Of a DNA stretch of 64,000 bases, positions 13,334 through 58,620 are shown in pieces. The stretch's first letter is position 1, and each line of letters opens with the position of its first letter. Below the pieces are notes generated by a model. It was not told the origin of the DNA. It did not search any database and saw only the letters and a list, made by a program, of their open reading frames with translations. Made by a program: the position numbers and the translations under genes. This stretch comes from Chrysomallon squamiferum (lineage: Eukaryota; Animalia; Mollusca), in the NCBI GenBank assembly GCA_012295275.1, contig CM022679.1, forward strand, positions 6,448,001-6,512,000, written 5' to 3'.

Positions 13334-16300
13334 TTAAGAGAAGCCTTGGACTGGACTTGGCCTGTCTGGTCGTTTGCGGTACTTGTTGATAACTTGCATG
13401 TACTGACCAATCAAATTAGAGATGTCAGATCCCTGAAAATTAAAAACATAATAAATCAAAACCAAATTACAACAATTCACTCTAAACAGATATTTAACTG
13501 TTTCATAATGTTTAATTTCTGTTGATATAAATACTATTAACAAATAATTACATATGTTTCTGAACTGATAATATAACTAAATGTAAAAAAAACCCCATAA
13601 AAATAAAATAAATAAATTTTATAAACAACTGCTTTTGTTTTTAACATCTACACTATAAGTTTATACTGATTTAAAACATTACCTGTCAATTTATGTTCAG
13701 CTAACATAATTTTGATGTCAGATTCTATTATTTTAATACATACCTGGTCAGTTTCTATTCGTAGAATTTTCTGTACCATGAGGTTTCCAATCTTCATGTC
13801 CAGATAGTTGACATTGTAGTCACTGCGATACCGTCTTGTTGATAGGATTTCACTAAATGGATGATGCAGCAAAGTTTCCTGCAACAAAACATTTAAATAT
13901 AATTTACATTAAAAGTAACTGAAATAATAGAATGTTACAATTCATTTTTTCTTCTATATGAAAATGTTGTTTATATAATCAACTAACCTGTGTTCGTTGT
14001 TTTAGGAACTGAATTCCATTCTTATTGACAGCCAACATAACATCTCTTCCAATGTTTGGAATATTCTGAAATGTGAAACAGTATTTAGTTTTTTATATAT
14101 ATCAGTTAACCAAATTCATATGTCCACTTTAGTTACTGTAAATCATCAATTTAATGCAAATGCATCTACAAGATAATTACATTGTTAATCTAAGGTTTTT
14201 GAAACACTTCTGAAAGCTAATAAATAGTTAGAAATGTGCATCAATATATTTTGTTTTGTTTTGTTTTTTGTCTGTATTTTCAAAATGCATTGATAAAAAT
14301 ATGCTTTTTGTATAATAATATGTAGACATAAAAATAAATAATTTCATGTTTTACTACATGTTAAATTTTTCACTCATTTAACACTTTACCTTGACAAGGA
14401 AGAATGTAGACCCAAATAATGACCATCTTGAAAGAATTTCTGAAAAAAATAAAAAAATAAAAACCAAAAACAATTATTAGCATTTGAAACAATCTACTTG
14501 AAGTGCAAATAAATACTGCCATTAGCTGAAATTCAATTTAAACAAAGTTCTTTTTTGAAATATATAATCATTAATAACAAGTTTTTGGATCTATTTATAA
14601 ATTTCACTTTAATATTACTTATTTTAATCCTATCCACAGAATGCTGATCCTGTTAAATGTTCTTTAATTTAATTAATTTTGTCTGACATAAAAATATGAT
14701 GAAGCTTTTTTTATCTGCTGGTCTGATTTCGTTAAAATTTTATTTATATTACTTTTATTTATTTTTATATATATTTATCCACATTATTCATAAATTTGAC
14801 TTTACCAATGAATTTGGCTCTGCAAGCAATAGGGGGTAGTTGCTTGGTCTCCATCATCTTGTCATGGATTCGATTGAGCCACTGCTGTGGTTTCACCTCT
14901 GGGTGATTGCGTAAAGTGCGTGGAATCAGTATATCAAGATCTTTCCTGAAAGAATATTTAAAACATTTATTTATATGAATAATTTTTGTTTTATGAGACA
15001 AAATTCTCTTAAACATTTTTTAAATAATGTATCAGATGAGAAGAAATGAGAAAGAAGAGAGAAATCAGGAAAAGAAAATAAGCACAGAAATATAATGTAA
15101 TACGAAAGCTAGTTAACATTACAGAGTTTGAACAAAAGAAACTGTAACAAACAATAATTTTAATATTAGCAAAGAAAATAATAAAACATTTGAAAAGTAG
15201 TTTTAACTAAGAATAGAAAGTTAATGTATTTATCACAGTGTTTTTCATTTTTTAACCATCTTAAAATTAACATCCTTTTTTTCTTCTTAAAAATGATTTT
15301 CTTTAATAATATTGAAAATATAATTTGATATATTTGCCCATATCCCACAAAACAGAGCTTGCATACACTTAAATGTTTATAAATGCTTTAGTAAATGTTT
15401 AAGTTAACTTACAATGTTGGGATACCAACTTGTTCTTGTCCTTTGTACAACATGGCACCCATCAGAGCTATTTCATCCTGTGAAACAGATTTTGTAAATA
15501 TTGATATTCAAAGCCTTCAGAATTTCTATCTGCCACTTATTAAATTGTTTTATATTATATGTGATTTGAAAATAGTTGCAGCATTCAAATAATATTATTT
15601 TGAATTAGGAGACTAATATGAAGTTCTAATACTATAATGAATATCCATTCACAAATATTGTTATTAAACTTTTTTCCATAAATACTACAATTATATTTGG
15701 TGTTTACTTCCTAATCATCTTGGAATTTAAAAAAAGTTAAAAAATTGGTGTGTGTGTGCTGTATTTCTTTGTGTTCATAATTATTAATTTACTGTCATTA
15801 TAAAGAAGACACACCAATCCATTTAATGAGCACAGTCATTAAAGGATATCTATAAATTCTAAAGTTACATTTTTTTATTCTTCAGTTGATGCAAATGATG
15901 CACTACATATCTTTTTATTATAATATGCAGTTCTTATCTGGCCTGAGTATTTAGTCATTCTTTAATCTTGGTATTATCATAATGAGCCCACCTGATGATC
16001 TCTGCTGATAACTCCCTTATTCAGAACCACAAGCAGACCATCTAAGAAATCCAGAATGCACTGTTCAAACATCATATCCACATAGATTTCATTATCCATG
16101 TGTCGAATTGGGAAAAACCAAACTGTGCGCTGGAAAATTAGATCAAATTCCAACTTCTTGCGGACAAACTCAGCAGTCAAATCCAAGATGTATTCCTCAC
16201 GACTTAGTTTGTTGAATTTTCCATCGCCTGAAACAGATGTTGGTAAGTAAAGGAGGATAAATCACCTTATTTGACAAATTCAAATATTTAAATATTAAAT

Positions 16301-19287
16301 AAGTAAATACAGTTTATAATATTAGTTCCACAATAAGTGGTTCAAAAATTATGTTTATTTTTTTAATGTTCTTTAGCAAAAATGTATTACACCCTGGCAG
16401 GAAACAATGATAAGATGGAAGTATGTAAGACAGAGACTAACTTGAGGAAAGGTCCATCTGATTAATTATACAAATACTGAACATTTTATTTGTAGGTTTT
16501 AAACTTACGAGTTCTGATAAAAAGTGTGTACTCATCCATTTCAATTGTGTCATCAATATTCAGGTCTTGGCAGACGTCAAATATTGCATCTAGCACGATC
16601 TAAAGAAAATACAATACAAAATTACAAAATAATAATATTTAAAATTGAATGTATTTTATTACTAATATATGTGAAGAAAATAACAGTAAGTTAAATAAAA
16701 GATCAAAGAAACTAATACGTTTTGTGATTATAAAAATATATATATATTTTTTTTGTAATAAGTTTAATTTCTCAATTATTCCTTCTTTAAATAGTTTTGT
16801 AAATGACCATTGTGTGTTTATTATATTTCATTTAACTAACTAAAAATGAATTTGACTAAGCATTAATAGCTAAAATTAAATAATATTTCATTAAGAATTA
16901 CAGTAATAATATTTTCATACTTTTTACAATAACCAAAAAAAAATAAAACAATGTTAAATAAAATAAAACTTACAGTACACGACTTGACTTGCAACATTCC
17001 ACCACGGGAGTCTGACCCACTGTAGATGAATGGGAAACGCTTACATGTTCGACCATCCTGTAGAAGTATATATACCAGCTTATTATATGTATTTCTAACT
17101 AAAATGCTATCTAAACTAAGAAAAATAAACTGTAAAAAAATATTATATGCAGATCTTGGGATTGTTGCTGGTATATGTAACCCAACTAGATTTTGTACTC
17201 AAAAAGGGTTTATTTCTTTTCAGCCATGTTCATTACTTGTATAATTGTAAAGAAAGTATAAACAACACAAATCTTAATAACAGAACAAATACTTTTTGAC
17301 TTTTCACTTACTGCTAGTGCCTGTACTTCTTCTCTCAGTGGAACATTTTTTCTTCCTCCATACTTGAAGGTCTTTCTCAGATTCTGAACAACCAAAGATG
17401 CTGATTCTAAAAGAAAATATTAAACACCACATATAAATATAATAAGGAATGAAAGTTAATTAGTATTTATCAACAGTAACAAATATTTACATACATATGA
17501 AGACATTTGATCCGTTTTTGGTTTAATTTAATGAAATATATTTTTCATCTTTCCTCAAAACATTTATTTTCATAATTTTAATATTATAAAAATAATATAT
17601 CCAATAAGAAACAAAAAGAGAAAAAGATAGAATCGACCAAAGTTTTCTGGTTTACAGTATATAAGCTTGTTATATACTCACGACTGAATGTTCTGGTGGT
17701 GTCCATGGCTGTTGTTTCAAGCAGTTTGAACAGATAGGGTCGCAGAGTGTCAGAGCAGTCACAGAAAGCTGCCACCAGTGCAAACAGTCTCCACCCTCGG
17801 ATAGCACTCTTCCTGTAAAAACAATAAAAATCATAGTCATTTACTCACAGCAGTCTTAGTCATTATACTCAGGACAATGTTAGTGCTTTTTATAAATCAG
17901 AGATTATTTATAAGTTAACTGTCTTAATTGCATTATTGTAATGTATTAAAATTATTATCCTATTCCAAACTAAATGAAACCTCTGAAATATATTATTATT
18001 ATTATTATTAGTAGTAGTAGTAGTAGTATGGAGTAATGAAGGAATAGATTTAGTAGCTTCTATTCAGTGAGCTATTCTCACTGGTTAAGAAGGAAGACAT
18101 TTCTGAATTCACATTAAAATCAATCATCATCAAATGAAAACATTATCTGACATAATTATATCATTATATATTTAACTATAAAAATTTCTCAGTTTTACAC
18201 ACTTACCCTTTCATACTTCTGTTACTTGTAGTTTGCTTACACAGTTGACAGTAAACCTCATCTCTCAACTCTGGGTATTTATGGCAAGCCTGAAAAATAT
18301 TTGTAATTATACAAGGTTTTTATTGATATATTAACAGTATATTCCATAAATAATCAATCCTGAGACTGTAGATGCAGCAAAGGCATTTGTTTGATATTTT
18401 TTAGGATCAATGATTTGAGTAAAATATAGCATAAGCAATATATTTAACAAGTAAATATAACCAATGAGAATCCTTTTTTCAAGGCCTTAATGAGTTTTCA
18501 AAATGGTTTAGATTTTTCAAATAATTAAAAAATATAAATAACCGAATTTCTTTTTTCAAGACCTTAATGAATTTACAAATGCTATAAAAATTATTTTCAA
18601 AAGTGAAAAGATATTTCTAAAATTTTAAAACAAAAGTGACCAAAAAATAATATAAAAAAAAAAAAAAAAAAAAAAAAAAATGTATAAAAGATAAAACATA
18701 CTCTTAGAATTTTCATCACACAGTCATAGTCAGTCTGATTGTGTCGCATTGGGTAGTCTCCCATGAACATCATAATGGCTGAAAAATAATTATCAAAATA
18801 TATTTTTAATAACACTACAGCAATATATTTAGATATAAATTATAATATCAGTTATAATATTTAGAAACATTTTATTATGATATATTTAGAAAATATGTAA
18901 ATATATTTCAAATTAATTTATTAATATATTTAGAGTAAAATATTTAACAACATTTAAAAAAAATTCAGTTCTAAATTTTGAATTTTGTTTAAAAAAAAAA
19001 ATAAGAAAATTAACAATGAAAATCCCCTAAAAACTCCACATAAAACAAAAATTAATCCAGAAATATTATAAAATATATTATAAAATAACATTAATAAATA
19101 ATGTATGATTATACAGGTTTGTGTTTGTAATGTTTTTATTTACATTTGATATTCCTCACAATCTGGTAACTGAAAAATATATCATGTCACTAAAATAAAA
19201 TACTCACAAACAAAACATTCCAAGGCCAGCTTGTTGAGTTCATTTGTTGGAAGTTTGAGTAGAGATGCCTGGATTGGAGACTGGAAA

Positions 19288-19350
<63 letters not shown>

Positions 19351-20036
19351 TGAGTAACAGTTTGAAATAGAAAAAAGATAATGAACTATATTTTGTTTGC
19401 AGTGTATTTCATTAAATTTCTTATCATATTAAAAACATATATTTAATAACAAAACATTTTTTTTTTCATATGCAAGTTAATAATAATGATAATAAATTCT
19501 ATTCATATTTTATTGCTTTCATCATTAATTCAATTATGTTCAAATTTTTATTTCATCTATCAGTTTAACTTTTAACAGTATTTAATTTTTTTAATTTTTT
19601 TTTATCATAACATGACCAATAAAAATATCACTTTAGATATGTAAGTAATAACTGTTATAAATAAACTTATACATACATTATTGAGGGGACTTACAGTAGC
19701 TAGTATGAAAAATTACATGCACTAACAAACTCAGGTATGATGTTCTATAATTTACAGATCTGAATCAAAAACTGAAATAAAAGATTTGGGGCAGAGCTAT
19801 AAGATTATTATTATTTTTTTTTTATATTACATCTTTTTGATACTTACACGAGTCCACTTAATAAGATCAGCTTGCTCTTTCCAAGACCAATCAGAACCTG
19901 CAAACAGACATATATTAAACATTAAAAATTTTAAGATTATTATTTAAACTAATTTGAAATTATTATACAACTTGATAAAAAAGACTAATAATACAATACA
20001 AAAAAAAGATATTATTACTATCACTTTTATTATTAA

Positions 20037-20085
<49 letters not shown>

Positions 20086-21367
20086 AAAGTTTTATATTTT
20101 CTGGTACTCCTTTATTCATTTAATTTGTTAAGATGAATTGTTATTTATATATCTATTATTATAATTTTTAAAATCTTAACTAATGTTAATTTTGTTTTTG
20201 ACAGGAATTTATATATTTTCTTCTAAATATTATTATTATTATTATTATCATAATTTTAATAAGAAAATTAGAAAAGTTCACCTATAAGTTTATTTTAATT
20301 AAAAAAAATGTTGAATCTCAATATCAGTAAATAAATTACTATAAACAAATTTAAAACCCCAAAATATATATATATTGAATTAATAAAAGAAAACCATTTA
20401 CACAAAAACAATAATAAAAACAAAATTGAATGATAAAATTGTAGCAAGAAGCAACGTATTAATCTAATATTATGTTAAAATGTTTTTACTTCTCTTTTTT
20501 TTTTTTTTTTTTTTACAAAATTACAAGTTAAATTTGAATTTATTTATAACTTAACTTCCATAAATATATTTTACCTCTCTTCATCTATTATAAAATACCA
20601 ATTTAAAAACAATTTTTAACAGATAAATATTTTGATATATTAAGAAATAAGTAAGTTAACATATGTTTACTTATGAATTAAGGTTGAAACATACTAAATT
20701 AGATTTAATCAACAGTACTATTATTGGTTCACTTATACTGAATTCAGGATATGTGCATTCTATAGAGACTGAGTCTCTGTATAATGTAACCAAAAAATCT
20801 GTCCAAAATTTTTACTACAATGAAATTATTTTAAAATGAAAAAGCAGAATACATGTAAAAATAATGTAATGTACATAACTACAAATACTATATAACTGGG
20901 ATAATCATATATATATTTAAAAAAATAGGAAAATTTTGTTTACAATGTAGAAATATAATAACTGTCAACATGCACCAAAATGAAAAAAAAAAAAAATGTT
21001 TACAAAAGATTTTGATGTGAATCATAAACAGAAAAAACATGTTAATAATAACTTTATATCAAACAAAATATATCATATATAGGTACATTTACTATTATTA
21101 CTTTTATCTGATTTTTTTAACTTTAAGATTTCCCATTTAAAAAAAAAAAAACTGATACATGAAACAAAAAGGAATTTGTTATGCAAGTGTTACTTTAAGC
21201 ATTTTGTTAATGTATTAATGAGCTGGTAATTTGAGTTATAAATAGATGTTGTACAATGCGCACCATCACCACGATGTTTTGACTGCTGCAGATTATGTAA
21301 CTTGGCACTTTCAATTTTCTTAATTGTTCCTCTGATTGAGCCATCCTCTGCACGCAACATCTCAAAC
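13334..21367 (-). CDS. MYO15: Myosin XV second MyTH4 and C-terminal FERM domain exons
   Basis: Exons 21264-21367 ([16 protein letters not shown]), 19848-19897, 19208-19280 ([10 protein letters not shown]), 18702-18778 (IMMFMGDYP), 18207-18289 ([13 protein letters not shown]), 17682-17812 (RGWRLF), 17312-17406 ([11 protein letters not shown]), 16974-17057, 16509-16599, 15992-16227, 15413-15477, 14806-14945, 14390-14439 (WSLFGSTFF), 13988-14065 ([11 protein letters not shown]), 13744-13878, 13334-13432 (..SPVQGFS*). Confidence 0.93.
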
Positions 21368-21835
21368 CTTTAAAGCAAAGTTACAGCATTGGCCAGGAGT
21401 TAGTCAACATCAGCAGGAAAACCAGACAATGATACATATATATAAAACATACACACTCTCACAAACCCCTGCAGTTACTGAGAAACAGTCATTTCTTTTA
21501 ATCCTTCATGGTCTGTATTATATATAAATCATTTGAATTTTTTTAATTAAATGTTTTTTTCTTACAGCAATGAAAATGTTTAAAATTTATTAGTAGAAAA
21601 ATGGAGAACACTAATTTTCCTCTGCATTTAGATTTATTTTTTTAACTGCAGGGTTTGCTCCAGTAGTGATAAATAAAACAAACTGTATATATTATGTGAC
21701 ACACAAAATGTATATAATTATAATAAATTTCAAGATTTTTTTTTAAACCATTTTTCTTTTGTTGAAAATTCTCTTTGTTTACAAAATGTTCTGATTTGTT
21801 TTAATCATAAATTAAAATAAATTTAAATTAATAGC

Positions 21836-21866
<31 letters not shown>

Positions 21867-24547
21867 CTTGTTACTTTATTTACATATTATCTGTCACATA
21901 ACCATGTGATAACAATAAACTGCTATGTACAAATATCTGAACATTATAATATATAAAAATTACACAAATATATTTATAACTTTTCTTGTAAAAATCAGTA
22001 CAAAAAGATAAATTATAAAAAGCTTAACATATTGCTAAAAAAAATGTTAGAAATTTGTAAATAGCAGTTTATCTATAATTTTGTATTAATTTCCACAAAA
22101 TATTATCTTCATAGCAAACACTCAAAGCGTTAGAGATTTTCTATTTCTGCATAAAATCTTTCAAACCTTGACATGTTACAGTTCATTTAGCTGATAATAA
22201 TAATAAATAAAACAAAAACAAAAATAAATAAAAAAACATGTAAATAAGTATCCAAATCAGATCATTTGTAGTGAAAATAATGAAAAATTGAAGGAAACGA
22301 AACAACTAAAACTAAAAACTGAAGATTTTAGTAAAAAATATATTTTATTATATTATTATTTTATTTTGAAGTTAACAACTGTAACATAACTAAGGTCTAA
22401 ACTGTGCAGAAACAGACTAAAACACCTGCAAAAAGAAAAAGACGGTGTCTCCTATATTGAGTGCTTTGTCTGCTGGTGCAGAATGACTGAAAGCAGAATA
22501 TAATGATGGGATCAGTATGGGTTACACCAATGATTTTCCAAACAACAACCTCCTGTTTACATAACCAAATTTTACCTTCTGTATTTGTCCCTTGGCGTCT
22601 GCAATATTTGCAAAGTAACAATCAATATAAAAACAAAAAAACAAAAAACAAAAACAAAAACAAGAATTAAAAAAAAAATGTTTTACTCTAAATAATAACC
22701 AAATAATTGATAAATAATAATTGATATAAAAACAGAGAAACAAAACATACAGTCAAACAGACTGGAAGAAAAAATGTAAAAATATATATATATATATATA
22801 TAATTATTCATATATGTATTTATATGTATACAAATATATGTATAGAAAGAGCTAAACAGACAAATATATTATCTTTAAAACATAATTTATACACATTTTT
22901 GAAATAACCATAATTCTTGAAAAATTTATAAATAAATAAATAAATAAATAAATATTAAAATAATATAATTTTTTAATTTTTTATGAAGAAGGTGTGAGGT
23001 TGAAAATAAACACACACACATACATAGACACACACACACACATCTACATATATAATAAACACATTTGTTTCTTAGATTAATGACAAAAAAGTTATTTATT
23101 TACTTGTCAACACTTTCTCTGAAGTGTAGCATAGCAAATTCCATCATGGAATATTTGCCATCACTCATGTTGACCACTGTCCCTTGACTGGTTTCACTCT
23201 GGTCATCTCGTCCATCCTATTATATTATCAGATTATTAAATATAGAATTCAGTTACAACAAATTAATGTAACATATGTAAAGTATTTATCATTAGTGTTA
23301 TAGATATGTGTTATTTAAACAAGTGGTATCAACAGTTTCTATATGTTTTTATTATGGAAAGATATGGATGTTATGTTAAAATGAAACTTTTATCAAGTCA
23401 TATTCTACTGGTGTTCATAAAGAGTCAGCAGATACCAATTTAAGCTGTGTAAGTGTACTGTTCTTACCACACTGCATAGGAAAATATTCAAGAGTAATTT
23501 CTCTAGCATAAAAAATTATTAACATTTCATGACAAAATACTATAAAAGAAATAATATATCCTTCATTTTGTTATTTGTTTTTATCTTTATATTAATTTCT
23601 AAAAATTATTAAAGGATGGAAAAGCAAAGAAAAAATAATAAATTGCATATCAACAAAAAAAAAGAAAGAAAAGCGAAACACTTACTCTGCTTGGAGGTCT
23701 AGCCAAATGGACCTAAAAGAAATTAAGATGGTAAAAGCTACTAATATAATAACATGCTAGGAATGACCTTTTTGACAGATAAGATATAAATCACAAGAAA
23801 ATAAGTATATTATCCATTTAATTTGTGGATATAAGGATTGTATGTATTAAAATATACTAACTGGCAAAACAGACTTTAGCAAACAATAATTTCATTACCA
23901 GTAAAGAAAACTGACATATTTGAAACAAATTTTAAATAAATGTGCACATATGAAAATAGATACAAAATAAAACTGAAACATACTTCTCTGTTAAATTCAT
24001 TTTCAAAACTTTTCATTTTCTTTCCAAGTATCAAAAGTATAGTTTTGAAATTTAAAAATGTTCTGTTTTGCCACTGGGTGTAAAAAGCAAATACTTAAAT
24101 AAAAACGTAATGAAATGTTACTACTTTGGAGGAAAGGGAAAACAGTTTGCTAAAAATCACAGCACACACCTTCATGTTTGTGGTTTCTATCTCATGTCTG
24201 GCTAATGGTTTCACATACTCAGCTGGGAACAATCCGACCTTGCCATTCAATGATCCATACAGCCATCCTGTAAAACAAACATTAAAAAGTTTATATGCAT
24301 AATGTTTTATATGATCACCTATTAGATGACTTGGTACAAGAACAGAATAACAATTTAGACAATCTTTGGATATATCTTTCATATATATATATGTATATTA
24401 AATGCATAAAGATCATAGATTTCATTTAGGAAAGACATTTCAAACCAACTGCATTTTTTTTGGGGGGGGTTTCTGAAGTTCATTTATTCAAATATCAACT
24501 GAAATCACATTATTTTATTTTCTGTTTGGAAAATAAATATATTCCAC

Positions 24548-24617
<70 letters not shown>

Positions 24618-27600
24618 CAACAATAATAATAAAGGAATTAAAAAATTATTACAAATATACATAGAGACATACAATTTTAAATTCTGTCTTACCATTGTCC
24701 AAATCCATTTCTGTTTCCACCAGTTTTATGATATCACCAGTGCGGAAACTAAGAAGAGTAGACTCACGAGTGACATAATCCTTAGTGGCCACTACATATT
24801 TGTTACCCTGGAAACAAAATAAAATTTAAAATCAGAACAACAGACATTTCACAGTCACTTTAATATAAAGCAGGAGAGTCATTTATGTCTATTTATTGTC
24901 ATATAAAGCAAATTTGAAAAAAAAATTAACTGATAAAAAATTGCCTTTATCTTGAAGTATTTTGATAGTATCTTTTTAAAAGCTGAAAAAATGTTTTAAA
25001 AAATAAAATAACTGGTCAGATAAAGCTGGTTACTCGTTTGTTACAACTCTTGAATGCATGTAAAGGTACACCCAAAAGAGCATGAATATTCTTAAGAAAT
25101 ATTCCTTCAACTGCACCAACTGTCTATCTGGATCAATGCACAAAAAACCAAAAATGTTTACATATTAGTTGATGTCTTAAATAGTTTTTAGGCTGTTAGT
25201 TAGAAAGGGGTAAGTGTCTTACAGATTTGATGTATGATTCTATTTCATGTTCTATTGACTGTTTATGTTATCTTACTTACTCTTTCACTCTCTGAACAGA
25301 ATTTGTCAACCATGTCTTTTAAGTGTTGAGCCTGTTGGAATTAAAAATATTAAAATGTAATAAAATCAAGAAATAATTAAAAATAATATTAACATTTCAA
25401 TTAAAAATGACAAATACTTTAATTTGACATAACATAAATACTTCAGTATAATTTATAATCATGAAAACAAAAATTAAAAACAATATAAACATTTAAGTTA
25501 AACATGATAAATATTTTAAATGTACATACATGTGGTGTGTAAAAAACCACAGACTTGGTTTTCAGATGTAGTTCAAGTACTGTAGTGGTCAGCAGGTTGC
25601 AGTTCACAACATCAACAAATCTGCAATTCAAAATAAACTTTCATCATATATTAAAGAAAAAGGAAAACAAAGATTACTTCTGTTTGAATATTTCAATTAT
25701 TATATTCTCAATGACAAATCTCAATGACCCCACAAAAACAACCCCATATATTTCCTTCAAACATTAAAACACCTTGTTATATACCCAAACAAATCTGTAC
25801 ACACACACACACGCACACACACTCACTCACACACACACACACATACTCACATGCTCACACATACAGACAGACACATACAAATGCATGCATGCATCCAGAC
25901 TCACACACACACACACACACAGACAACAGAAAGAAAAAAAACATATATATTTACCGTATTTCCTCTGATACAGAAAGGAAATCATCAACAATACTCTTTT
26001 CCCTGGTGACCATACGAAGTCCAGTGTGGCTAACACCAAAGTATTTTACTGTAGCATACTGGCCATTTGACTGAAAAATAAAACAATGCAAATTTTCCTT
26101 AAATATATTTTTTGTTAATATTCTTTATCATACATATAAATTATTACAGAATTTTATATTATTAAAAATACAAGATATTTTGTTAATTAAAATAATGTTA
26201 AAAATTCATAGTTAAGCTTTGCAGGAAATAGAAGAAAATTATTTCAGTATGTCTTGCTGATAATTTGACAAGGAGTCAGAATATGTTTGTTATATGACTT
26301 TGATCAATGTTGCTGGATTAGTAATAAAAAGTGCCTGTATAACTTTTGTACAAATATTGTTTTTGATTCAAGCAATAAAACCAGGAAATCCAAAGATATT
26401 TTTACCGCTACTGGAAAGAGCCTGCAAAAGTAAGTTGGCCATTCTTTGGCTGTGTCAACAATGATTCTCTTCACTTTGGTGCTCAGGTCCTGAACAAGGA
26501 AATTTTCTCTATTCACTCCATATCCCTCTGAAACAAAAATATGTTTTTGGAAAATTGTAAATGAATTTTTTATTTATAAATGAATATTCATCTTTTACTT
26601 AATAATTATGTAAAAAAAAGAAAAAAACAGTGAAGTATACTTGTATGTCTGACAGGGATTTATTCAAATGTAGGGACTTAAGAAATATTGAAGTTTTAAC
26701 TAAAGACACACACACACACACAGAAAGAGAGAGAGATAGAGAGAAAAGCTATGTTTTTATTCTTAATAAACTGCTACTATTCTATTCTCACCCAAAGTTC
26801 CTTTCATTTTTATTCTTTCCTCTTTGCTAAGACGAATGCAGCCATTGTTGTAGACATCTTGAACAATCTGACAGTAAATGAGATGAAGAGCCAAAGGTTT
26901 CTCTAGTTTCTCAGCAGGCCAGAAAACCTGAACATAAAAATTTTATTACTTAGTAAATCTTTACAAATAAACATTAAATTTGAAAGTTGTGTATAAAAAA
27001 CATTTTTATTTTCTATTTGAAATTTAAAAAGTGAAATACAAGCACAATAAAACAAAAACAAAACAAAATAAAATTTATATATAATACTATCATATTTGTG
27101 TCTTTATGAACAAATACTCAATCTGTAACTAGTAAATTTAACATAGTTTGTGTTGTATCAATATGTATGGATACTGTAGTACTGTTTATAATGGTGAGCT
27201 ATGTATATTTCATAACCTTTGAGAAATAAATATGATCTACTTGTATATATTGTAATATATAAAATTTTATATATACCTATATACTAATATTTTGGTAAAT
27301 ATATATTACTTATGTATATTTTTATGAATACATTATACTTCTGTACATCTTTGAAAATACTTATGTATATTTAGGTAAATAAATACTACTTGTACTTACT
27401 TTGGTATATAAACAGTACTTATGTTTATTTTGGTAAATGTTACTAATGTAAAGCTTTGTAATGAATTTTTAAAACAATTTTGAGGTTTTATTTTTTGCTG
27501 ACCTCTTTTCTGATCTGCAGAACCCATGGAACTTTATGATACATGAGAAAGAAAGTTTTGTTTTGTGGATACAGTTCAGTGATTGCTTTCTCAAAGGCTG

Positions 27601-30600
27601 CATAGTCAATGTTCAACTTGGGTTGTGGTTCTGGCATCACTTCAGGCTCAATCCGAGTGGCATAAGTCTGTGATTCTGGTTCATCTCGCTCCAAGTGAGT
27701 TGAATATATTGACTCCTTAGGGATATCTTTCTCAATTTTTGTAGAATAAATCCCCGATTCTCTTAATTCTGAGGCCTTGATTTCTTTGCTCTTCTGTGTT
27801 ATTGTGGTTTGTGTTTCAATGACAGCAAATTTCTTTGGTGGTGGTCGGTTTGGCAATGGTGGTGGGACTGGCACTGGTGCATCTGTTTGTATAGGTTACA
27901 TCATTTTTAATATGACAACACATTATTTGATTTAATATAGTAGAAAAAAATAGGAAAAGCAAACTAAAGAATCATCTCACACTTAATGTTTGAATTACAT
28001 ACAAAATACTATATAAAGTAGTTTATTATTGAGTATTATAAACAGTTTAAAACAGGTCCAGAGACTGTATTTTCAAGAAATAGTATCTGGACATTAAAAA
28101 AAATCAACAGCAGAAATTATTAAAAAATATATTGTCTACCTCAATTTGAAACTAACAAATAATAGATATGGCTCAATTTAATTAATGTACCTATATATCT
28201 GCAGATGTTAATGCTGTATTTAAAATATATCATACCAGTTTCAATTTTTGTAGCATACTCTGGGGATCTTGCTCTTTTCAATGTATCTGTGGTCTGTTGT
28301 GCTGTTTCCACCATTCTTTCTACTTTTTCTTCTGGTTTTGTTTCTGCTTTGGAACCTCCTCCCAGTTTCATTTCCAGCAAACGCATTGTATTCACATGAT
28401 CAGCTGTTTCAACTAAAGATTTTGATCTTTTATTTTTTTGTGGTCCCTAAAAGCAGAAAGAAAAACTCTAAATGTAGAACATATTCTGATATTCATTTAC
28501 AATTTAGTATTTATTATTTTTGTGAAAATTCCTAAATTTGAATCTGAAAAGCCAACAAAATGTTTGAGAATTTTTTACTTAATTCATCTCTAGCTGCCAC
28601 ATTTTATACCTTCATATTCATATGTTTCATTCAGTTTAAAATTTACAATTTGTTAACTCTCTGACATGAGATAAAAACTAAAAGAAATAAAAATTCCTGG
28701 ACATTTCAGTCAGGATTGGAAGAAAAAGTTGTCATTTTTTATTTACTTCAAATATACTTAAATGAGTTAAAGGACTTTTTTTTAGAAATGTGTTTTTTTT
28801 TAACAAAATTTAAAATATGAAGATATCATAGTAATTTACAATAATGTATTTTTAACCTCTTCATTCTTTTTCAGTATTGATTTGGGCCGCAGTTCTGGTT
28901 CTTTTGCTGGTTCTGGACGACTCCATTTCTTCTTTCCCATCATTCTGTTGTTGAGATTTCGGGCCACCTGTTCATCAATCTCCAGCTTTCCCACCTCAAC
29001 ATCTTTCTTTTCCTCTTGCTGAACTGGTGGAGGCCAAACCACCCTCCCCACCCTCACTGTTCTAGCACGCCCAGTTTTATCAGTGATGGTGAAGGATCCT
29101 GACTGATCTCTACTGATAGTTGACGCAGGGGGAGGAGGGGGAGGAGGTGGAGGAACTGGAGGGGTCTTCAGCTGAGAATGAAGACGAGGTGATTCGACAT
29201 TTGTTTCTGGTGGTGATGGAGGTGGTGTTGGTGGTGAAGTCAGAGTTCTGACAGGTTTGCTTGTCTGGTCTTCAGAATGTGCTGGGAATTTGATTGTTGT
29301 GATGGTGCCTCCTTGATCCTGTGAACCAATCTGAAAGGAGGAGCTGGATTCAGTACTGACTGACTGAACTGCAGGAACATGGTTCACGTGGTTTACAACT
29401 ATATTACTAGCAGGTGCCCTCTTTTCAAAATTGGACTTGATGAAGGAAACCTTTTTGGGTGCAATGTCAGGGGCAACCACTGGTTTAGCACCAGACTGCA
29501 CAATAATCTTTGGTGCACTGACAGGAGCTGCTACTTCTGAAGGGAAGCCCACATTTGATGAGAAACTGGCATCAGGACTGATAATGCTTGCAGCAGTTAC
29601 CACGGCAGGGACAATGGTAGGCACAACAGCTGGCTGAGATTTCATCTGTTGCAGTTGCTGTCGAAGAATTTCTTGCTCTATGGATTGTTTCAGCAGTTGA
29701 TTTTGAAGCTCCTGTTGCTGAAGAGCAGCTTTCAGAATGGCTGTTTGCTGATTTTGATTTTGGGTATTTTGTTGCTGTTGCAAGGCTGCTTGAATTACAG
29801 CTGCTTGCTGCTGTTGTTGTTGCTGCTGTGCTTGCTAAAAGATAAACAAAATATTATTTTCTTAAATCACTTCCAAAAATGGCCAAAAATAATGTACTTA
29901 AATCATATAAAAAAGAAAGAAAAAGAAACCTCCAAAACAAGACAAAAAACATTCTATAAAAAATAAAAATAAAATAAAACCTTTTAATAGATTCCTGTCA
30001 CTAGATTTATGCAAAAATTTAGAGAAACATAATACATTTTCAGTCATTATTCATAAGGTGTATTAAATTATTCTTTTCATTTCAAAAATATTTCATTTTG
30101 TATTTTTGAACATTATGAAAATAATTTATAAATAATTTGCATTAAATACAACAGCTGTTTTCTGTAATATTCTGTAATGTAATACAGAACTCACAACATA
30201 GGCTTGAAGGACAGCTTGCTGCTGCTGTACTTGCTGCTGTTGCTGAACTTGTTGCTGCTGTGCCAGCTGCTGAGCTACCAACTGTTGAACTGGGTCTGCA
30301 GATAATAAACATGATCATGTCCAATTATATATTAACACTATTTTTTAAAACTATGTTACAGTAATTAAAGAAAAACAAAATGACTATTAAATAATTAAAA
30401 TAAAAAGTAATAAAACAGTTAAATAAGAAAAATAAACATATTTTTACATTAAGCAATTTAACCCTTTAAATTAAGAAAATGTCCATGCTTAAAAAAAAAA
30501 AAAAAAATCCTCCAGATTATTCTCTTTGACATTTCTATTACTATAGTACTGTATACAAAAAAAAAAAAATCAAATAATAATAATCAAGAGCAGAGTTTAC

Positions 30601-33197
30601 ATATATTAGACAAACAGATCAACAAAAATAAATGTACCAGCTGCTGGCAGAATTAAACTGGGTGTGGTCAAGGGTGTTTGGGTAAGTCCAACTCCAAGGG
30701 GTACAGTTGGAATTGTAGCCTGTGATTGGAAAAGAAATCATTTTGAAACAAGTTTTGTTGGCTAAAGGTTTATTAATTTTGCATACATGTGAAAATTGAA
30801 AAACAATAAATAATAATAATAATAAAAATTAAACATCATGTAATTCTAAAAGGTGAACTCAGTGAATATAAGATTTGTAACAAGAATTTCAAGAATCTAA
30901 CTTATTTTTAAATAAAAACAATTCAAAATATTTTATGCTGAAATTATAATTCATTTTTTATAATTACAGACATATTGAAAGATGGGACTTTTTTTCACCT
31001 GAGGAGTCTGTAAGCCAGGAACACCTTTTCCACCACCTTTAATCCTTTGTTCTAGTGACCTGCCATCACTGAGGTCATCATGTTCATTGAGTGCATTGCT
31101 AAACACATCCTCCACCCAGTGAGACCAATCAGAATTGGCACCTGAGACATCTGATGCCACTGACATTCGATCTCTTTTGTCCTTTCTTGATATTGCATAT
31201 TCTGCAGTTCCTGGTTTTATCTTGCCAAGTGCTGGTTTTGCAGCAGATTTAACATAACGAGAGTTCAGTTTAGTAGGTGACAATTCTCCATTTATTTCAC
31301 TGTTAGCAACAATACCATTTGTAAAATATCTCAGATTAATCTTGTTGTTAGATAAATCATGAAGTGCAGACTCAGTCTCCTGAAGTGTTGTAATGTTACC
31401 ATTGGTTACAACACCATTTGTAACACCATTGGCTACTGGTGGTGTAGGTGCTCGTCGTTTGTTGTATCTGACATTCAGTTTGGTATCTGACAATCCAATG
31501 ATGATATCAGTGGGTCGCTGGTTGAGAACACTGGTCATAGAAAATCTGAGAGTTTCATCAAGTTCATTTTTGACAACATTTTTTCGAATCTGTGAATTTT
31601 TTCTTTCATCCCCTCTGGCTTGGGCTTGGTCATAAATATTTATTAGTTCGTCATCCAAACCACTGTTCTGTCTGTAAAAATCTGAAGGTTTTCCAGAATA
31701 AATTGGCTCTTTTCGTGTTGCCCTAGGCAAACTGCCAACAACAACCATGATACGTTCCTTGTCTGGGTTGTGTGGACTGAAATATAAAAAGAATCACAAT
31801 CACAACAATGAACAATATTGTTGTGTCTACCTGTATGTATTATGTTTATTTGGCATGCCTATGAATTTATACATCCTCTACAGCATTTATTAAGCATAAT
31901 CTTCAGAACTCAGTCAATCACAGTTTATTATCAGTCAGAAATCTGAGTGATAATCTATAAAACTAGATTAATATTTACAAATTTAAAGACTGCAGTCAAT
32001 ACAAATTTATAATTATTCACCAATCTGTTTGTGTATGTCGATGGCGACTGATTCTTTCTTGACTTTTGTCACATGACACCAAAAAGAAAGCTTTGCATGT
32101 TGGGAAGCCTGGAACTATTTCCATCTCACTTATAAGGTCAAGGACATAGTCATATCCCATCAATTCATAGTAGTCAAGATCTTCTTTGAGTACCACTGTC
32201 CAGCCATGGGCATTTTCAGACAAACCTCTGTGAAAATAATTAAAAAATAATAAAAATTATAAAATAATAGTAATGACTTTTATAACAAATTATTCCAAAT
32301 AAAATAAAAACTTAAGAAATTAAACCTTAGTAAGGCAGATAAATTTCATTTTTAAAATGTCAGAGAGCAGGTTGAAAATTAATAATAATTAAGATATAAT
32401 TGTACACCAAAACTAATGTTAAATATATTATGTGCACATGAATTTTGTTAATTTAAATTATCTTCACATACACACTTTACACACCCCAAAACTAAATTCA
32501 GAGATACAAACCTTGATTTGAGAAGCTGAGAGGTAAACAGTTCTCCTGATGTCCAAGATTCAACATGCCCAATAAAGTTATGATCTGAGACACATTCAAA
32601 ACAAAAAACAAAATTAATGTTCAATTAACAAATATCTGTTTACAGTGTATCCTTGATAGTTTTATTTACCTAATAACCAGTCTTTGCTAATAATAAAGTA
32701 TGATTTTAAAAAAAGGTTTCCTGAGAAAGAATGGAGACTGACTCATTCCCTTTTACAATGTCAGTATTTACAGAGAACTATTAAATAATCTCTGTTTGAA
32801 ACATAAGAAAGAACGAAGGTCAAAAAGTGGTTTGATTGATAAAAAGAATTAAGAAATTAAGTTAAAGGAGAGATTATGTTTTGAGTTCTTACCATCAGGA
32901 AATTTGACTTCCAGTCCCATGCTGGCCTTTCTTTGATTTGCAACCCATTCTAACAGGCAGGGAGGATAAATTCTGCACAGTTGTGGTTCTATGTTAGCGC
33001 TCTGTAGAACTTTGTGCTGGCAAATGATTTTAAAGGCATTCAAACCTACATCAGACACATATCTGAAAAACAATTATTTTAATATTTTATAATCACATAT
33101 ATATTCATAATGTTTTGCAAAAATATGAAAATTAAGATTTCATGATTATTTTCAGAAATACATCTATCTATCTATCTATCTATCTATCTGTCTATCT

Positions 33198-33258
<61 letters not shown>

Positions 33259-34208
33259 AAAAAATGTATATATCAAAACAAAACCTAAACCTAAAATATT
33301 AATACATATTTATATTACCCAGTTTAATATGCGAATTATTCTACACAGAGAAAATGTCAAACTCACTTGAGAAGGTATTTGAAGAGAGTTGGACTTGCAG
33401 CAAAGCAGCTGAGACAGCAGGCCAAGAGAAGCCAGGCCCGCTCTGCATTCACCAGGTTTTGATTCTTCCACGTTTGGTTAACAAGCTGACACAGGATTTC
33501 ATCCCTCAGTCCTTCATGCTGCAATCCCTGTTTGAAAACAGTATTAAAATATTAGATTTTTAAACATGAAGTAATAAGGGTTTTGAAATCTAGCTTTGAA
33601 ATATCAATTTCAATATGCCTAGATTGTTTTGTTGTAATTAGTTTTTAATAGTAGTTATTATAGTAGTATAACATACTTAGTGCAGTTATATACTTATTTA
33701 TTAACATTTTCATTATCATTATCATTAAATACAATAATACTAATAATTTTTTAAAAGATAAGTGACTACATAGATTGTTTTAATCCATATGTAACTTTGT
33801 GTACTCTTCACTGGTATTTTGTACCTTTCTGGCCAATAAATTGCTATGTATAAAACTTTTGTTTTTGGTATTGGCTTTTTTATTCACATATTTTAAAACT
33901 AATGCAGCTTAGAGGAAAGATGAAATAATAATAGTTACCATTTGAACAATGTAGTCAGCCAAAACCTTTAGTCGTTTTTCACTCATATTTTGATCCATCA
34001 TGAAACGCAGTATCTGACAAACACAGAACAAAAAATGTTATTTATTTATACTTTCATGCTTTAAAAATACTAACTGCATATATAGAATTGTTTCTTTCTT
34101 TAAAGATAACTAAATTTGATTTGTAACTGATTTATTATGAAAAATATAAAGTTCTTGCAAAATGCTTTATTCAGATTATTTTTAAAATGTTTTATTGATG
34201 ATAAATAA

Positions 34209-34240
<32 letters not shown>

Positions 34241-34441
34241 GTTTGCAGAACGATTGTAAAAATATCATCCAGATCTATAAGGATATGCATTTTCATATGA
34301 AAATGTATGCACAGTCATATAAAAATAACAACTATACAATCTTACCAGTTTGAAAGTGGAGATGGATCTATGAGTGAGTTCTTCTCCTTGTACAGATGTA
34401 AGAGGTGATCTGATTGGCTCAGCCTGAAATCCCCATGTTGG

Positions 34442-34485
<44 letters not shown>

Positions 34486-35801
34486 ATAAAAATAAGAATT
34501 ACTTCAATATCAAACTTATTCAACATTTAAAATACTTTTATATTTTATATTTTAAGAATATATTTAGCCTCTATCCAAAAATCCAGCAAATCCAGAAATC
34601 TAGACACCTCCAGTCCCAGATAAAGGGTTCACTACCTGTACATGAAATATTGTAAAGAGCTTTCCTTTTATTATTATTATGCACAATCCACAACTATGTA
34701 TTTTAAAGAAAGAAATCATTTCCTTGTTATTGTTATTATAAAAATTTCAGTCCATATAGTATCTTGCTAAAACATTTTAATGGCATTTACTAATTTAATA
34801 TTGCTATCATATATGATAGTAAATTGTGATTTTTAATCAATTTCATTGTCTGTCAATTACCTTGAAATAAACACTGGTGTACTTGCTAAATGCATGAGAG
34901 TTGATGTCAATGGGTAGTCTGTAGTCCATGTCAATAGGTCGCAGGTCACTGCTCACAGCAATTACTTGATCTGTAGAGTTAATCAGTCGGTACTCTGAAA
35001 CCCAAAAGGTTAAAGTTGTTTACATTTTCAAAGATTTTCTGTGTTACTAAAACGTATAGATTTAAAAAAAAAAAAAAAAAAAAAAAATTTGGGATTTATG
35101 TGTGTATGTGCACATTTGTCTTTTCGTATATTAAGTTATTTTCATTTGATCAGTTATTAGATGATCAGAATAAAACTGATCTGACAGGAATAAAACATCT
35201 TTTATGCCTTCATATCAACAAGAATGCACAAGCCGTGGTAATTTGGTAAATCAGCTATAAATACTGGCTGGAATAGGACATGGGCTGTCAATACATAAAT
35301 CAGAACAGCTAAAAAGTACATGTTGTCAGCAGTTTTTCACATTACACTAAAATCAGAAACTAATTACTTACAGTGTTAATGTTTTCAGTGAAAGAATATA
35401 TGTTGTTTGATGCTATTTCAACAGAATTATATATATATGTTTTTCATTTTATATTTAACATGATTAAATTTAAGACCTATGACTTAGTACAGTTTGAAAA
35501 ACAAAATCCAATGTCACAACACCTTGGGTTTTTCTTAGAAGTTAATAGCTGGGGACTGGAAACATACAGTAAACTTTAATACAAGGAACACAGGTTTCAG
35601 GTGGGCAGGGGTACACAGGGTTAGATCCTTTGACCAATCAAACATAACATATACACTGTACCACTGAGAAACAGATTAAATAATATGCACTTTATGTATA
35701 AATACCACCACTGTAAAATTTAATACCAGGGTGATTGTAGTTTTGCTGTTATGTACAGTGAATTTTGAAATTTAAAAGCAAATAAATAAAGAAAGAAATG
35801 C

Positions 35802-35839
<38 letters not shown>

Positions 35840-38800
35840 TTTGCACCATATAGGTGTTCTAAATGATATACAAAATTATTTAAATGTTTTAGAATGCTGA
35901 TCACTAACCATCTAGTTTGTTGTATATGAAAGCCAGTTCTCCAGGAATTTCCAGATTGGCCACACTGGCAGCTTCTCTGGCTGCTTTCTCCTGCAAATAA
36001 ATAAATAAATATGTATAAAATAAATTGGTATATGCTTGTATGTACATATGTAAGGTGAGGATTGTGAGTGTGTATTCTTTCTGATTATATTAATTTTTAT
36101 GTTTGTATATATGTGTGTGTGTGTGTGTTTATGTATGTAATGAGAGAGAGTCAGTGTATACAGGCTTACAGTTTTAAGAACAAGACTATTAATTTTTAAA
36201 CAAATTGATCAAACCATGAATATGATAAGTATGTAACTGCACTAGGTATATTATATTATTATAATAACTACTATTAAAAACTAATTACAATAAAATCAAA
36301 ATATATATATATATTTCAAAGCTAGATTTCAAAACCCTTCTTACTTTATTTTCAAAAATCTGAACAACATAAAAAAGTAAGAATTTCCCTTCCATTAATT
36401 GGAAGCATTAATCAAGCACTAAGAATTAATTTTATTTATTTACTTATATAATTATTAACAAGTTTTAATAAAAGTGTTTTTATATTTAACATTAAAAATA
36501 TTACAACTCACTCTTTGTTCTCTCTCCATTTTTTCACGTTCTTCCTGTTTTCGTCTAGCTAATTTCTCAGCCTCAATTTGCTGCCGCATTTCTTCTCTTG
36601 CCTGCAAAGTAGTTTAAATAATGTAATGTAATATTCATAAAGCCTGATTAATTCTGTTTTCTTTTAAAAACATTCATAATAATAATAATAATAGATAAAA
36701 CAAACAAACAAATATAACACCACTGACTCAGAAATGGTCTAAGAACTGGATTTTAAAGTAAAACCTTTCTTAAAGAAAATTTAATTTAGTTTATTTATGC
36801 TAATGCAGATGCATTAGATGCAAAGGCCTAAATATATTTATACTATTCTTATTATATTTAATATAGATGTATACATATTGTTTAAAATACATTCAGTATA
36901 TTTACACATGTTAAATAATAATAATAAATAGATGGCAACACTTACAACCAGAAATCTGCGCCGCTGCATTCGCATGCGATGTTGAGCCTGAAGCAAGATG
37001 ATGCCATGACGAAGTACTTGAAACTGCCGTCTGTAACAATCAAAGACAAAATATATTTCTTCGCTGAGAAAATACACAACACATAGAGTACATTATCAAA
37101 GAAAGAGGACAAAAATCCAAAAAGCCCCAGGCAAGACAATCTAGTCAAACCAGACATTATAGGGAAAACATTCTAGGCTGCTGTTATTTAGAAAACAAAT
37201 CCTCATAAACATTCTTTCAAATTACTGAGATACTGTAATAGACATAAACAGTATTAAACACAGATATACATACACATAGACATATACACACAGACACATG
37301 TACATATGTGCATTGTTTTAAATATTAAATATACACACATTCATACCAAGAACTTATTTACCCAGTTGTGTGACTTGATAGAATGTGAAAGATAACCATC
37401 AGAGAGATATATTTGTTTTGACATATGAAAGCTAATTTACATTACAGATTCAAGTGCAAAAAGATAAACCAAGTAAGTGGTTCCTTGATAAAAGTTCTAT
37501 TCCTACTAATAAAAATAAAAGGAATCATAAGCCTAGAAATTCTTAATTATTTAAGTAAATATCATATACATTGGTAAAATTGTCTTTGTTGAAAGGTGTC
37601 TGGATAACAGTTGCATATTAATGTTATTTTATTGAAAGGTGCCAGTTAATTATAGTTATTTCATCTACTGATTTGATATTAAATGATAATGAGATGTCAA
37701 AAAGTAGGTGCATATTAACAAAGATGAATTATTTACACATTTCAGAAATAATGTAACATGCAACTAAATAAAAACAGGGATAATTATGACTCATTTCTTG
37801 TTTTGTAATGTGTTAAATCAAATAACAGCTCTATGATATGGATACTGTGTTAAACAGAGGTCACAATGTGTGTGTATATATAATATTGTTTTTGTTTTTA
37901 ATTTATAATATTTTTTAGATGAAACTGTAATTGAACAATTGCTTAACAACATCTAATCATACGTAATATTAACAGTTATCTTGTGCAAGAAATACCCTGT
38001 AAAAATCATATGAAATATGAAATCCACAGCCATCCATCACTCAATGGGCAGTTCTTATCAGCTAGCAGTAAAAAGGTCTTTATATGCACCTTCCCCCAGC
38101 TAGGAATACAATTCACTGGCTTTTCTTAAACAACTCACAGTGAGATGAGATGAGATGAGAAATGGCAAACAGGCAGCCTGAGGACTGACCCTCTGACCCA
38201 CAAAGACAAATGTGTCATTTAGAAATGTCTTACAATTATGTGTGAAGCATCATTTCAAACAATGAACTCAGTCAACAATTTTTTATATTTTTTATATTAA
38301 TTCTTTAACTATGAACACATACATCAGGACAAATATTACTGTAGAAGTTAAAGGATTTAAAAATGAAACAATGTACAGTTTTCTCATGGTCCTTTCTGTT
38401 TAGAGGGTAGTAAGAGAAGTAATGTTGTAAGAGAAGTACTTATAAAACTTTAACAGTTCACTCCATTTATTCAATGTCATTGTAGACTATGAATGCATAT
38501 GTAATACCAGATAACATACTGTGGTTTAATTTGTTTCTTAGTTTGATATTTTTTTCATTATACCAATAATAAACAGATTAAATAGATTAAAAACAAACAA
38601 ACAAAAAATACAAAAAAAAAAAAACCCACCTGATTCAAACACACCACACTAATAAAGATATACACAATAAAACAGAAACAAGATAAATTACAAAAATAAA
38701 AAATGTCTAACTACATACATTTTTAATAGTGTAGTCTTATATTTTGTGACAAACACACACACTTCATTTAATAAGATTTAAAAAGATATTTCAAAGTGTC

Positions 38801-42763: not shown

Positions 42764-42832
<69 letters not shown>

Positions 42833-43452: not shown

Positions 43453-43485
<33 letters not shown>

Positions 43486-46894: not shown

Positions 46895-46961
<67 letters not shown>

Positions 46962-52575: not shown

Positions 52576-52619
<44 letters not shown>

Positions 52620-57751: not shown

Positions 57752-57783
<32 letters not shown>

Positions 57784-58576: not shown

Positions 58577-58620
<44 letters not shown>

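What the first reader, a model, noticed from the sequence alone, without database searches (positions are those of the whole stretch)
21462..22452. Crossing long-range RNA duplexes (docking/selector-like switch) between the two alternative exons
Seen, on the transcribed strand: element A (22452-22417, GGAGACACCGUCUUUUUCUUUUUGCAGGUGUUUUAG) is complementary, with G-U pairs and bulges, to B1 (21631-21603, CUAAAUGCAGAGGAAAAUUAGUGUUCUCC) about 800 nt away. The adjacent B2 (21657-21643, CAAACCCUGCAGUUA) is complementary to C (21477-21462, UAACUGCAGGGGUUUG) with one bulge. C lies about 55 nt upstream of the branch point of the 104-nt exon. The order A, B2, B1, C makes the two helices cross, and A also carries UGCAGGUGUUU that could compete for B2. 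All are GC-rich islands in an AT-rich intron. Established: competing base-pairing controls mutually exclusive splicing in Dscam1, 14-3-3 and Mhc. Inference: an RNA-structure switch chooses between the microexon and the long exon.
Basis: partly seen in the sequence, partly recalled or inferred. Interest (0 to 1): 0.72.

Follow-up and report, generated by a model that had tools for sequence, protein, structure and literature searches.

The report
Likely RNA switch in mollusc myosin
In a mollusc myosin XV gene with a 23-base and a 104-base alternative exon, one intron stretch is predicted to pair either with an intronic look-alike or with the long exon's splice site, which likely tunes the exon choice, while the main crossing helix first proposed is no stronger than chance.

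Summary
The locus is a mollusc myosin XV gene (minus strand; nearest named protein Gigantopelta, 77%). The 23-nt and 104-nt exons are both 3n+2 and both splice to the same downstream exon in RNA contigs. A short/long pair recurs in 11 of 15 mollusc species with two or more proteins. Double inclusion or double skipping gives a premature stop.

B2-C beats chance (0 of 383 shuffles). A-B1 does not: 25 of 118 block shuffles match it, its pairing probability is about 0, and A-B2 is weak.

Element E (22415-22376, just 3' of A) pairs with intronic F (-38.4 kcal/mol) or with the long exon's weak acceptor G (-32.5). These are the intron's two best duplexes (0 of 223 shuffles; 1 of 64-83 in stricter controls), and G ranks 1 of 54 acceptors. 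A itself holds a strong unused acceptor.

Likely reading: E masks or releases the long acceptor and tunes the ratio, while frame and decay enforce exclusivity (about 45%). Conservation and covariation could not be tested. It resembles one side of ATE1 and is not a Dscam-type docking system.

The parts
13334..60111 (-). Myosin XV gene (motor, IQ, MyTH4-FERM, SH3, MyTH4-FERM); the 5' end may lie further up
   Evidence: ORFs, tblastn with the Lottia and Elysia proteins, Pfam, named homologues
23104..23216 (-). Upstream constitutive exon, ends in phase 2
   Evidence: RNA joint 23104/22598
22751..22761 (-). Candidate third 3n+2 exon of 11 nt, with a strong acceptor (13.0 bits) and donor (6.9 bits); not seen in RNA
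   Evidence: no joint
22576..22598 (-). Microexon, 23 nt (3n+2); the deeper-covered form in both RNA runs
   Evidence: joints on both sides, contig depth 77.1 and 286.3
22447..22489 (-). Z/A5: pairs with F2 (-18.3; extends E-F), with the 3' end of A (-17.7), or with G (-27.2)
   Evidence: predicted
22417..22452 (-).
22376..22415 (-). Element E, the shared arm: pairs with F (-38.4) or with G (-32.5)
   Evidence: predicted
22112..22184 (-). F (22184-22140), an intronic look-alike of the long exon's acceptor, plus F2 (22137-22112)
   Evidence: 31 of 46 columns identical to G, reached by 16 of 1000 shuffles; poor acceptor, -5.1 bits
21909..22078 (-). Hairpin P2 (-31.3; pair probability 0.97)
21690..21903 (-). 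Hairpin P3 (-25.2)
21643..21657 (-).
21603..21631 (-).
21462..21477 (-).
21399..21405 (-). Likely branch point GACUAAC; CUAAC lies at nearly the same distance from the acceptor in organism B
   Evidence: sequence; 0 of 46 other acceptors have CUAAC within 60 nt; loose end
21340..21388 (-). G: pyrimidine tract, AG and first 28 nt of the long exon; second partner of E; weak acceptor (-2.0 bits against 9.5 +/- 4.1)
21264..21367 (-). Long exon, 104 nt (3n+2), conserved across molluscs and beyond
   Evidence: joint to the downstream exon, depth 10.1 and 17.3; homologues; organism B differs at 15 of 127 letters
19848..19897 (-). Downstream constitutive exon, starts in phase 1
   Evidence: RNA joints

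Best explanation
The 23-nt and 104-nt myosin XV exons cannot both be included, or both skipped, without a premature stop, and intronic element E is predicted to pair either with intronic F or with the long exon's weak acceptor G, which likely tunes which exon is used. E-F would form first during transcription and tie E up, leaving G to the spliceosome. When E reaches G instead, helped by nested hairpins P2, P3 and B2-C that shorten the loop, the AG and the exon's first 28 nt are masked and the microexon form results. Strict exclusivity would come from the frameshift and decay of double products, not from the fold. B2-C is likely an accessory hairpin; A-B1 is likely not used. Shown: exon lengths, stops, three RNA joints, sequence complementarity above shuffles. 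Inferred: every statement about folding in the cell and its effect on splicing.
For: E-F (-38.4) and E-G (-31.3 on the scan grid, -32.5 optimal) are the two best of 6555 window pairs and share one arm. 0 of 223 global shuffles reach either value or the two-partner value. 50-nt block shuffles: 0 of 83 for the best pair, 1 of 83 for two partners. Real tiles: 2 of 49 and 1 of 49, the latter a poly-Q exon. With G fixed: 0 of 71 global and 1 of 64 block shuffles; with G shuffled: 1 of 68. G has the strongest upstream partner of 54 acceptors (-34.5 against -22.2 +/- 3.4) and scores below all but one of 46 reference acceptors. Of 30 E positions paired in both states, the 4 with different partner letters are all A/G opposite U. 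The two states lie 3-4 kcal/mol apart. E-F has p=0.94 before G is transcribed. 3 of 9 blind tiles of this intron (z -5.3, -2.7, -2.5) exceed all 53 control tiles. Both RNA contigs that hold the long exon are spliced at its 3' end and run on unspliced into the intron. Stops at 18772 and 19893.
Against: No orthologous intron could be read, so covariation is untested. Organism B's contig reaches about 545 nt into the intron and laid nothing on C, B1 or B2 at 80%; it likely does not reach E or F. The codon under E-G's 3' helix gives Ala here but Thr in Gigantopelta, Babylonia, Batillaria, Elysia, Pomacea and Nucella, so that helix is young or must co-vary. With E-F forced, the long AG is still predicted paired (0.08 unpaired against 0.00) and the branch point is less open (0.27 against 0.61). 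E-F is favoured, yet the microexon form has the deeper contigs. G is sticky (other partners at -24.7 to -27.2). Window sizes were chosen after E-F was seen. The upstream-to-long joint was not seen in either RNA run.
Confidence: 0.45

Rival explanations
1. The hairpins are neutral by-products of local inverted or direct duplications and UGCA palindromes. The exon choice is set by proteins and splice-site strength, with frameshift decay enforcing exclusivity.
For: All 7 UGCA of the intron fall in the elements. F resembles G and shares its derived Ala codon, as a recent duplicate would. No conservation of C, B1 or B2 seen in organism B. The long acceptor has 3 YGCY motifs (at most 1 in 46 others) and the only CUAAC; recalled as MBNL- and SF1/QKI-type sites. 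The short/long pair is pan-molluscan while these helices are not shown to be.
Against: One arm with two strong partners, one of them on the regulated weak acceptor, is rare in all controls. The arms have no copies elsewhere in the window; the genome could not be searched.
Confidence: 0.3
2. A works as a decoy acceptor, like In100 of caspase-2: it would engage the microexon's donor unproductively and promote skipping, and the fold would control how exposed it is.
For: 12.3 bits; only 4 unused AG sites in 46.6 kb reach that score, and two lie in this cassette. It lies 149 nt below the microexon donor. Its pyrimidine tract is more open with E-F than with E-G (0.74 against 0.43), and the microexon donor less open (0.37 against 0.68). 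No RNA joint uses it.
Against: The CAG itself is no more open (0.44 against 0.53). No conservation data. Contigs drop rare joints. As a recursive site it would leave a weak donor (0.9-3.0 bits against 7.2 +/- 1.9).
Confidence: 0.13
3. One reading: A-B1 and B2-C are crossing, mutually exclusive helices that choose the exon.
For: The sequences and the crossing order are correct; B2-C beats shuffles. Nested-only folding cannot score pseudoknots.
Against: A-B1 is at chance level (25 of 118), has p about 0 and costs 10 kcal/mol. A-B2 is -13.2. Neither helix touches a used splice site or loops out an exon.
Confidence: 0.07
4. In the sampled tissue the long exon is part of a first exon from an internal start near 21800, not an internal cassette.
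For: Both long-exon RNA contigs run unspliced to 21781 and past 21805, and X9 has no contig over 21877-22574. The exon holds an in-frame ATG.
Against: The contigs end at or near a masked repeat. X7 covers 22272-22594. The exon is internal in many full-length homologues, and organism B keeps the branch point and acceptor.
Confidence: 0.05

Closest known systems
Human ATE1 exons 7a/7b, R1R3/R3R4 module (PMC7797038; passages read)
   Same: An element in the intron between the two exons pairs with a 3' splice site and hinders it; two partners compete for one arm.
   Different: In ATE1 both partners are the acceptors of duplicated exons, and the elements are conserved and tested by compensatory mutants. 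Here the second partner is an intronic look-alike (F), E does not pair with the microexon acceptor (-14.6), the exons differ in length and are not alike, and the frame already forbids double inclusion.
Dscam1, 14-3-3 and Mhc docking site/selector systems (PMC6071210, abstract to early methods; PMC11802352, passages)
   Same: Competing long-range intronic pairings at mutually exclusive exons. F resembling G fits the model in which one duplicated arm yields two competitors.
   Different: There the docking site lies outside the cluster, each exon has a selector, and pairing activates an exon by looping out its rivals. Here every element lies between the exons, E has no partner in the flanking introns (best -14.9 and -15.9), and pairing would repress.
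Drosophila srp bidirectional pairing (PMC4691838; passages)
   Different: The srp stems are inter-intronic and each loops out an exon; A-B1 and B2-C lie in one intron and loop out none.
Caspase-2 In100 decoy acceptor (PMC2082412; passages)
   Same: A strong unused acceptor in the intron below an alternative exon's donor.
   Different: In100 needs a downstream PTB-binding U/C domain and was shown to repress. Neither was tested here.

Membership tests
Frame-incompatible mutually exclusive exon pair | Both exons join the same downstream exon and keep the frame singly | tested here: met
   joints in X7 and X9; no stop in either single form
Frame-incompatible mutually exclusive exon pair | Both exons join the same upstream exon | tested here: inconclusive
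   microexon joint seen; long-exon joint not seen in 2 of 2 RNA runs; internal in homologous protein models
Frame-incompatible mutually exclusive exon pair | Double inclusion and double skipping give premature stops | tested here: met
   stops at 18772 and 19893, upstream of many later introns
Frame-incompatible mutually exclusive exon pair | Double products are removed by nonsense-mediated decay | not testable with these tools
   needs decay inhibition
Dscam1-type docking site/selector | One docking site with a selector for each alternative exon | tested here: not met
   A's partners are at chance level; E has no partner at the microexon (-14.6)
Dscam1-type docking site/selector | Docking site outside the cluster; pairing loops out rival exons | tested here: not met
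   all elements lie in the intervening intron; E against introns 1 and 3 gives -14.9 and -15.9 at best
Dscam1-type docking site/selector | Elements conserved, with covariation | tested here: inconclusive
   organism B laid nothing on C, B1 or B2 at 80% and likely does not reach E or F; no other introns found
ATE1-type acceptor masking | Intervening-intron element pairs with the downstream exon's acceptor | tested here: met
   E-G -32.5, rank 1 of 54 acceptors; prediction only
ATE1-type acceptor masking | The same element pairs alternatively with the upstream exon's acceptor | tested here: not met
   -14.6 kcal/mol
ATE1-type acceptor masking | Disruption changes splicing and compensatory mutation restores it | not testable with these tools
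   needs a minigene
In100-like decoy acceptor | Strong unused acceptor below the alternative exon's donor | tested here: met
   12.3 bits at 149 nt, no RNA joint
In100-like decoy acceptor | Downstream U/C-rich PTB-binding domain | not tested
   a U-rich tract lies near 22337-22270 by eye; not scored
In100-like decoy acceptor | Represses the upstream donor | not testable with these tools
   needs a splicing assay

The most novel reading that the evidence does not exclude
The intron is a two-way conformational switch between unrelated exons. With E-F formed, the decoy acceptor in A is bulged out and silences the microexon while the long acceptor is free of E. With E-G formed, the long acceptor is masked and A folds back. 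One fold change would then switch both exons, and an equivalent, co-varying architecture could underlie the myosin XV short/long choice from chitons to bivalves and snails.
Probability: 0.15. Interest if true: 0.8.

Novelty: new variant of a known kind. Interest (0 to 1): 0.5.

Why it matters
The structure-controlled exclusive exons in the papers read here are insect and vertebrate cases, mostly duplicated exons. Listings for molluscs and for myosin XV showed no report of this pair or of such a switch. A compact 1.2-kb intron with a masking arm, an intronic competitor that resembles the acceptor, and a decoy acceptor is small enough for a minigene. It would test whether a duplicated acceptor can be kept as an RNA sponge, and how a microexon is chosen over a long, unrelated exon. 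The short/long choice sits just before the second MyTH4 domain of myosin XV and recurs in chiton, bivalves and gastropods, so it probably matters for the protein even if the fold is incidental.

Tried and rejected
My first helix scorer allowed unlimited loops, gave -102 for real and shuffled introns alike, and was dropped.

Steric hindrance by compaction: the four serial stems leave 201 of 1175 nt between the microexon donor and the branch point, too long for the roughly 50-nt limit (recalled). The pairing that would close the gap (22569-22530 with 21425-21388, -23.8) is at shuffle level (best of shuffles -23.3 +/- 2.4).

F as a third exon: in-frame stop, acceptor -5.1 bits, donor -0.7. An exon starting in A: donors at 3n+2 lengths score 2.1 bits or less.

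No whole genome is held. No orthologous introns: the motif pattern found 0 matches in metagenome, genome and viral contigs; one search gave 4 loci, one a true but short myosin XV fragment that misses this region. Rfam gave two sub-threshold matches.

No variant fell inside A, B1, B2, C, E or F in four organism A runs; with 25 variant rows in 5.1 kb this says nothing. The missing upstream-to-long and microexon-to-long joints are no evidence of absence, since contigs drop rare branches. Earlier findings of the scan: nothing returned. In one search one downstream exon end was off by one base; the stop positions reported come from the corrected. In one search the F and 27-nt acceptors were mis-set; F was rescored and the 27-nt score is not used.

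Full report
Setting. The minus strand from about 60111 to 13334 encodes a myosin XV. Exons match a myosin head and the Lottia and Elysia proteins through SH3 and the second MyTH4-FERM. Of 19 named or Logan proteins compared, Gigantopelta aegis is closest (77% against 47-60%), so the source is likely a related gastropod. No genome is held.

The exon pair. The upstream exon (23216-23104) ends in phase 2 and the downstream exon (19897-19848) starts in phase 1. Between them lie a 23-nt exon (22598-22576) and a 104-nt exon (21367-21264), both 3n+2. Either alone keeps the frame; both together stop at 18772 and neither stops at 19893. Contigs of two RNA runs from one study join upstream to microexon and microexon to downstream (depth 77.1 and 286.3), and long to downstream (10.1 and 17.3). 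No upstream-to-long or microexon-to-long joint is listed; the long-exon contigs run on into the intron. Contig depth is flat and rare branches are dropped, so this shows presence only.

Among 26 named mollusc species examined, 15 had two or more proteins covering the site, and 11 of these show both a short and the long segment: two Patella, Babylonia, Batillaria, Gigantopelta, Mizuhopecten, Pecten, C. virginica, Dreissena, Ruditapes and the chiton Liolophura. The other four show only long (two Magallana), only short (B. glabrata), or long plus a third form (Mercenaria). Three clusters were listed in part (15 of 38, 54 and 20). No protein holds both segments, but these are gene models and a frameshifted product would not be annotated.

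The sequences, coordinates and crossing order are right. B2-C is the best helix with at most one bulge in the intron (0 of 383 shuffles; 8 of 104 real tiles better) and the best 20-mer pair (0 of 18). Its whole domain folds only modestly better than shuffles (z -1.4, 6 of 60). A-B1 (-19.0) is matched by 25 of 118 block shuffles with A fixed, has probability about 0, and costs 10 kcal/mol when forced. A-B2 is -13.2. All 7 UGCA palindromes of the intron lie in the GC islands. Neither helix covers a used splice site or loops out an exon.

What was missed. E (22415-22376) begins two bases after A ends. It pairs with F (22184-22140; -38.4, 34 pairs) or with G (21388-21340; -32.5, 34 pairs), which spans the long exon's pyrimidine tract, AG and first 28 nt. 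These are the two best of 6555 window pairs. Global shuffles: best -23.3 +/- 2.4, with 0 of 223 reaching either value or the two-partner value. Block shuffles that keep the GC islands: 0 of 83 and 1 of 83. Real tiles: 2 of 49 and 1 of 49. With G fixed or shuffled: 0 of 71, 1 of 64 and 1 of 68. G has the strongest upstream partner of 54 acceptors, a few of them placed approximately. It is also a very weak acceptor (-2.0 bits against 9.5 +/- 4.1 for 46 others) with a consensus GACUAAC that none of the 46 has. F resembles G (31 of 46 columns; 16 of 1000 shuffles). The window sizes were chosen after E-F was seen, so the p-values are somewhat generous.

The rest of the intron folds into serial stems P2, P3 and B2-C. 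3 of 9 blind tiles exceed all 53 control tiles, and the arms have no other copies in the window. A holds an acceptor of 12.3 bits, one of 4 unused sites that strong in 46.6 kb.

How it likely works. E-F forms with p=0.94 before G exists and stays 3-4 kcal/mol below E-G in the full ensemble. I infer that E-F is the permissive state for the long exon and that exchange to E-G masks its acceptor, with frame and decay enforcing exclusivity. Against this: with E-F forced, the AG is still predicted paired and the branch point is less open; the favoured state does not match the deeper microexon contigs; G has several other partners at -25 to -27; and folding of 1.4 kb is unreliable in detail. Protein regulation is plausible: three YGCY motifs lie above the long acceptor, against at most one in 46 others (the MBNL label is recalled).

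Conservation. Organism B (runs X10 and X11, one sample) has the long exon with 15 differences in 127 letters and keeps CUAAC and UGUAAC above the acceptor. Its contig extends about 545 nt into the intron and laid nothing on C, B1 or B2 at 80%. Short or co-varied arms could be missed, and E and F are probably out of reach. Only 8 of the 15 differences were listed, none within about 30 letters of the piece ends, so conservation of G is unread. The codon under E-G's 3' helix gives Ala here and Thr in six other gastropods, so that helix is lineage-specific unless E co-varies. Searches for other introns failed.

Comparison. The closest tested system is ATE1, where an intervening-intron element masks either acceptor (PMC7797038, passages). 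Here only the downstream half is met; E does not pair with the microexon acceptor (-14.6). The Dscam-type layout (PMC6071210, first fifth of the text; PMC11802352, passages) and the srp bidirectional layout (PMC4691838, passages) are not met. A resembles the In100 decoy in position (PMC2082412, passages) but is untested. Search listings for myosin XV with mutually exclusive exons, and for molluscs with RNA structure, showed no report of this pair. The library lacks most subscription papers, and I read no supplements; gene tables there could list the exons.

Verdict. Observation partly confirmed; interpretation partly supported, with different elements. New variant of a known kind. Interest 0.5: a likely unreported, mollusc-wide exon choice with a statistically clear but unvalidated competing fold.

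Noticed in passing
window 22761-22751 (-): Candidate 11-nt exon with a 13.0-bit acceptor and a 6.9-bit donor; 3n+2, so it could be a third exclusive exon. No RNA joint seen.
   Followed up: partly
P0309, P0308; P0238, P0260, P0156: Ruditapes and Mercenaria models carry a third, 41-residue alternative at this site. Patella, oysters and Babylonia carry an extra small cassette before the pair.
   Followed up: no
P0187 and P0190: Two Daphnia species give a long and a short segment at the same site; the choice may extend to arthropods, or one model may be incomplete.
   Followed up: no
window 21368-21805 (-): In both RNA runs the long exon is spliced at its 3' end while its contig keeps at least 400 nt of upstream intron: slow acceptor, retention, internal start or assembly merge.
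   Followed up: partly
window 21483 and 21489: Run X7 alone differs at two places beside C; 21489 reads A to G on the transcript, allele or editing. No DNA of that sample was laid.
   Followed up: no
window about 41800-42450: A very strong inverted repeat in the large intron (helix score -123.7, far above all else), possibly a foldback element.
   Followed up: no
window about 50700-51500: Two similar stretches in the ORF list suggest a local direct duplication or repeat element.
   Followed up: no
window 22614-22598 (-): The microexon's acceptor AG is predicted to sit in a small hairpin (p=0.8).
   Followed up: no
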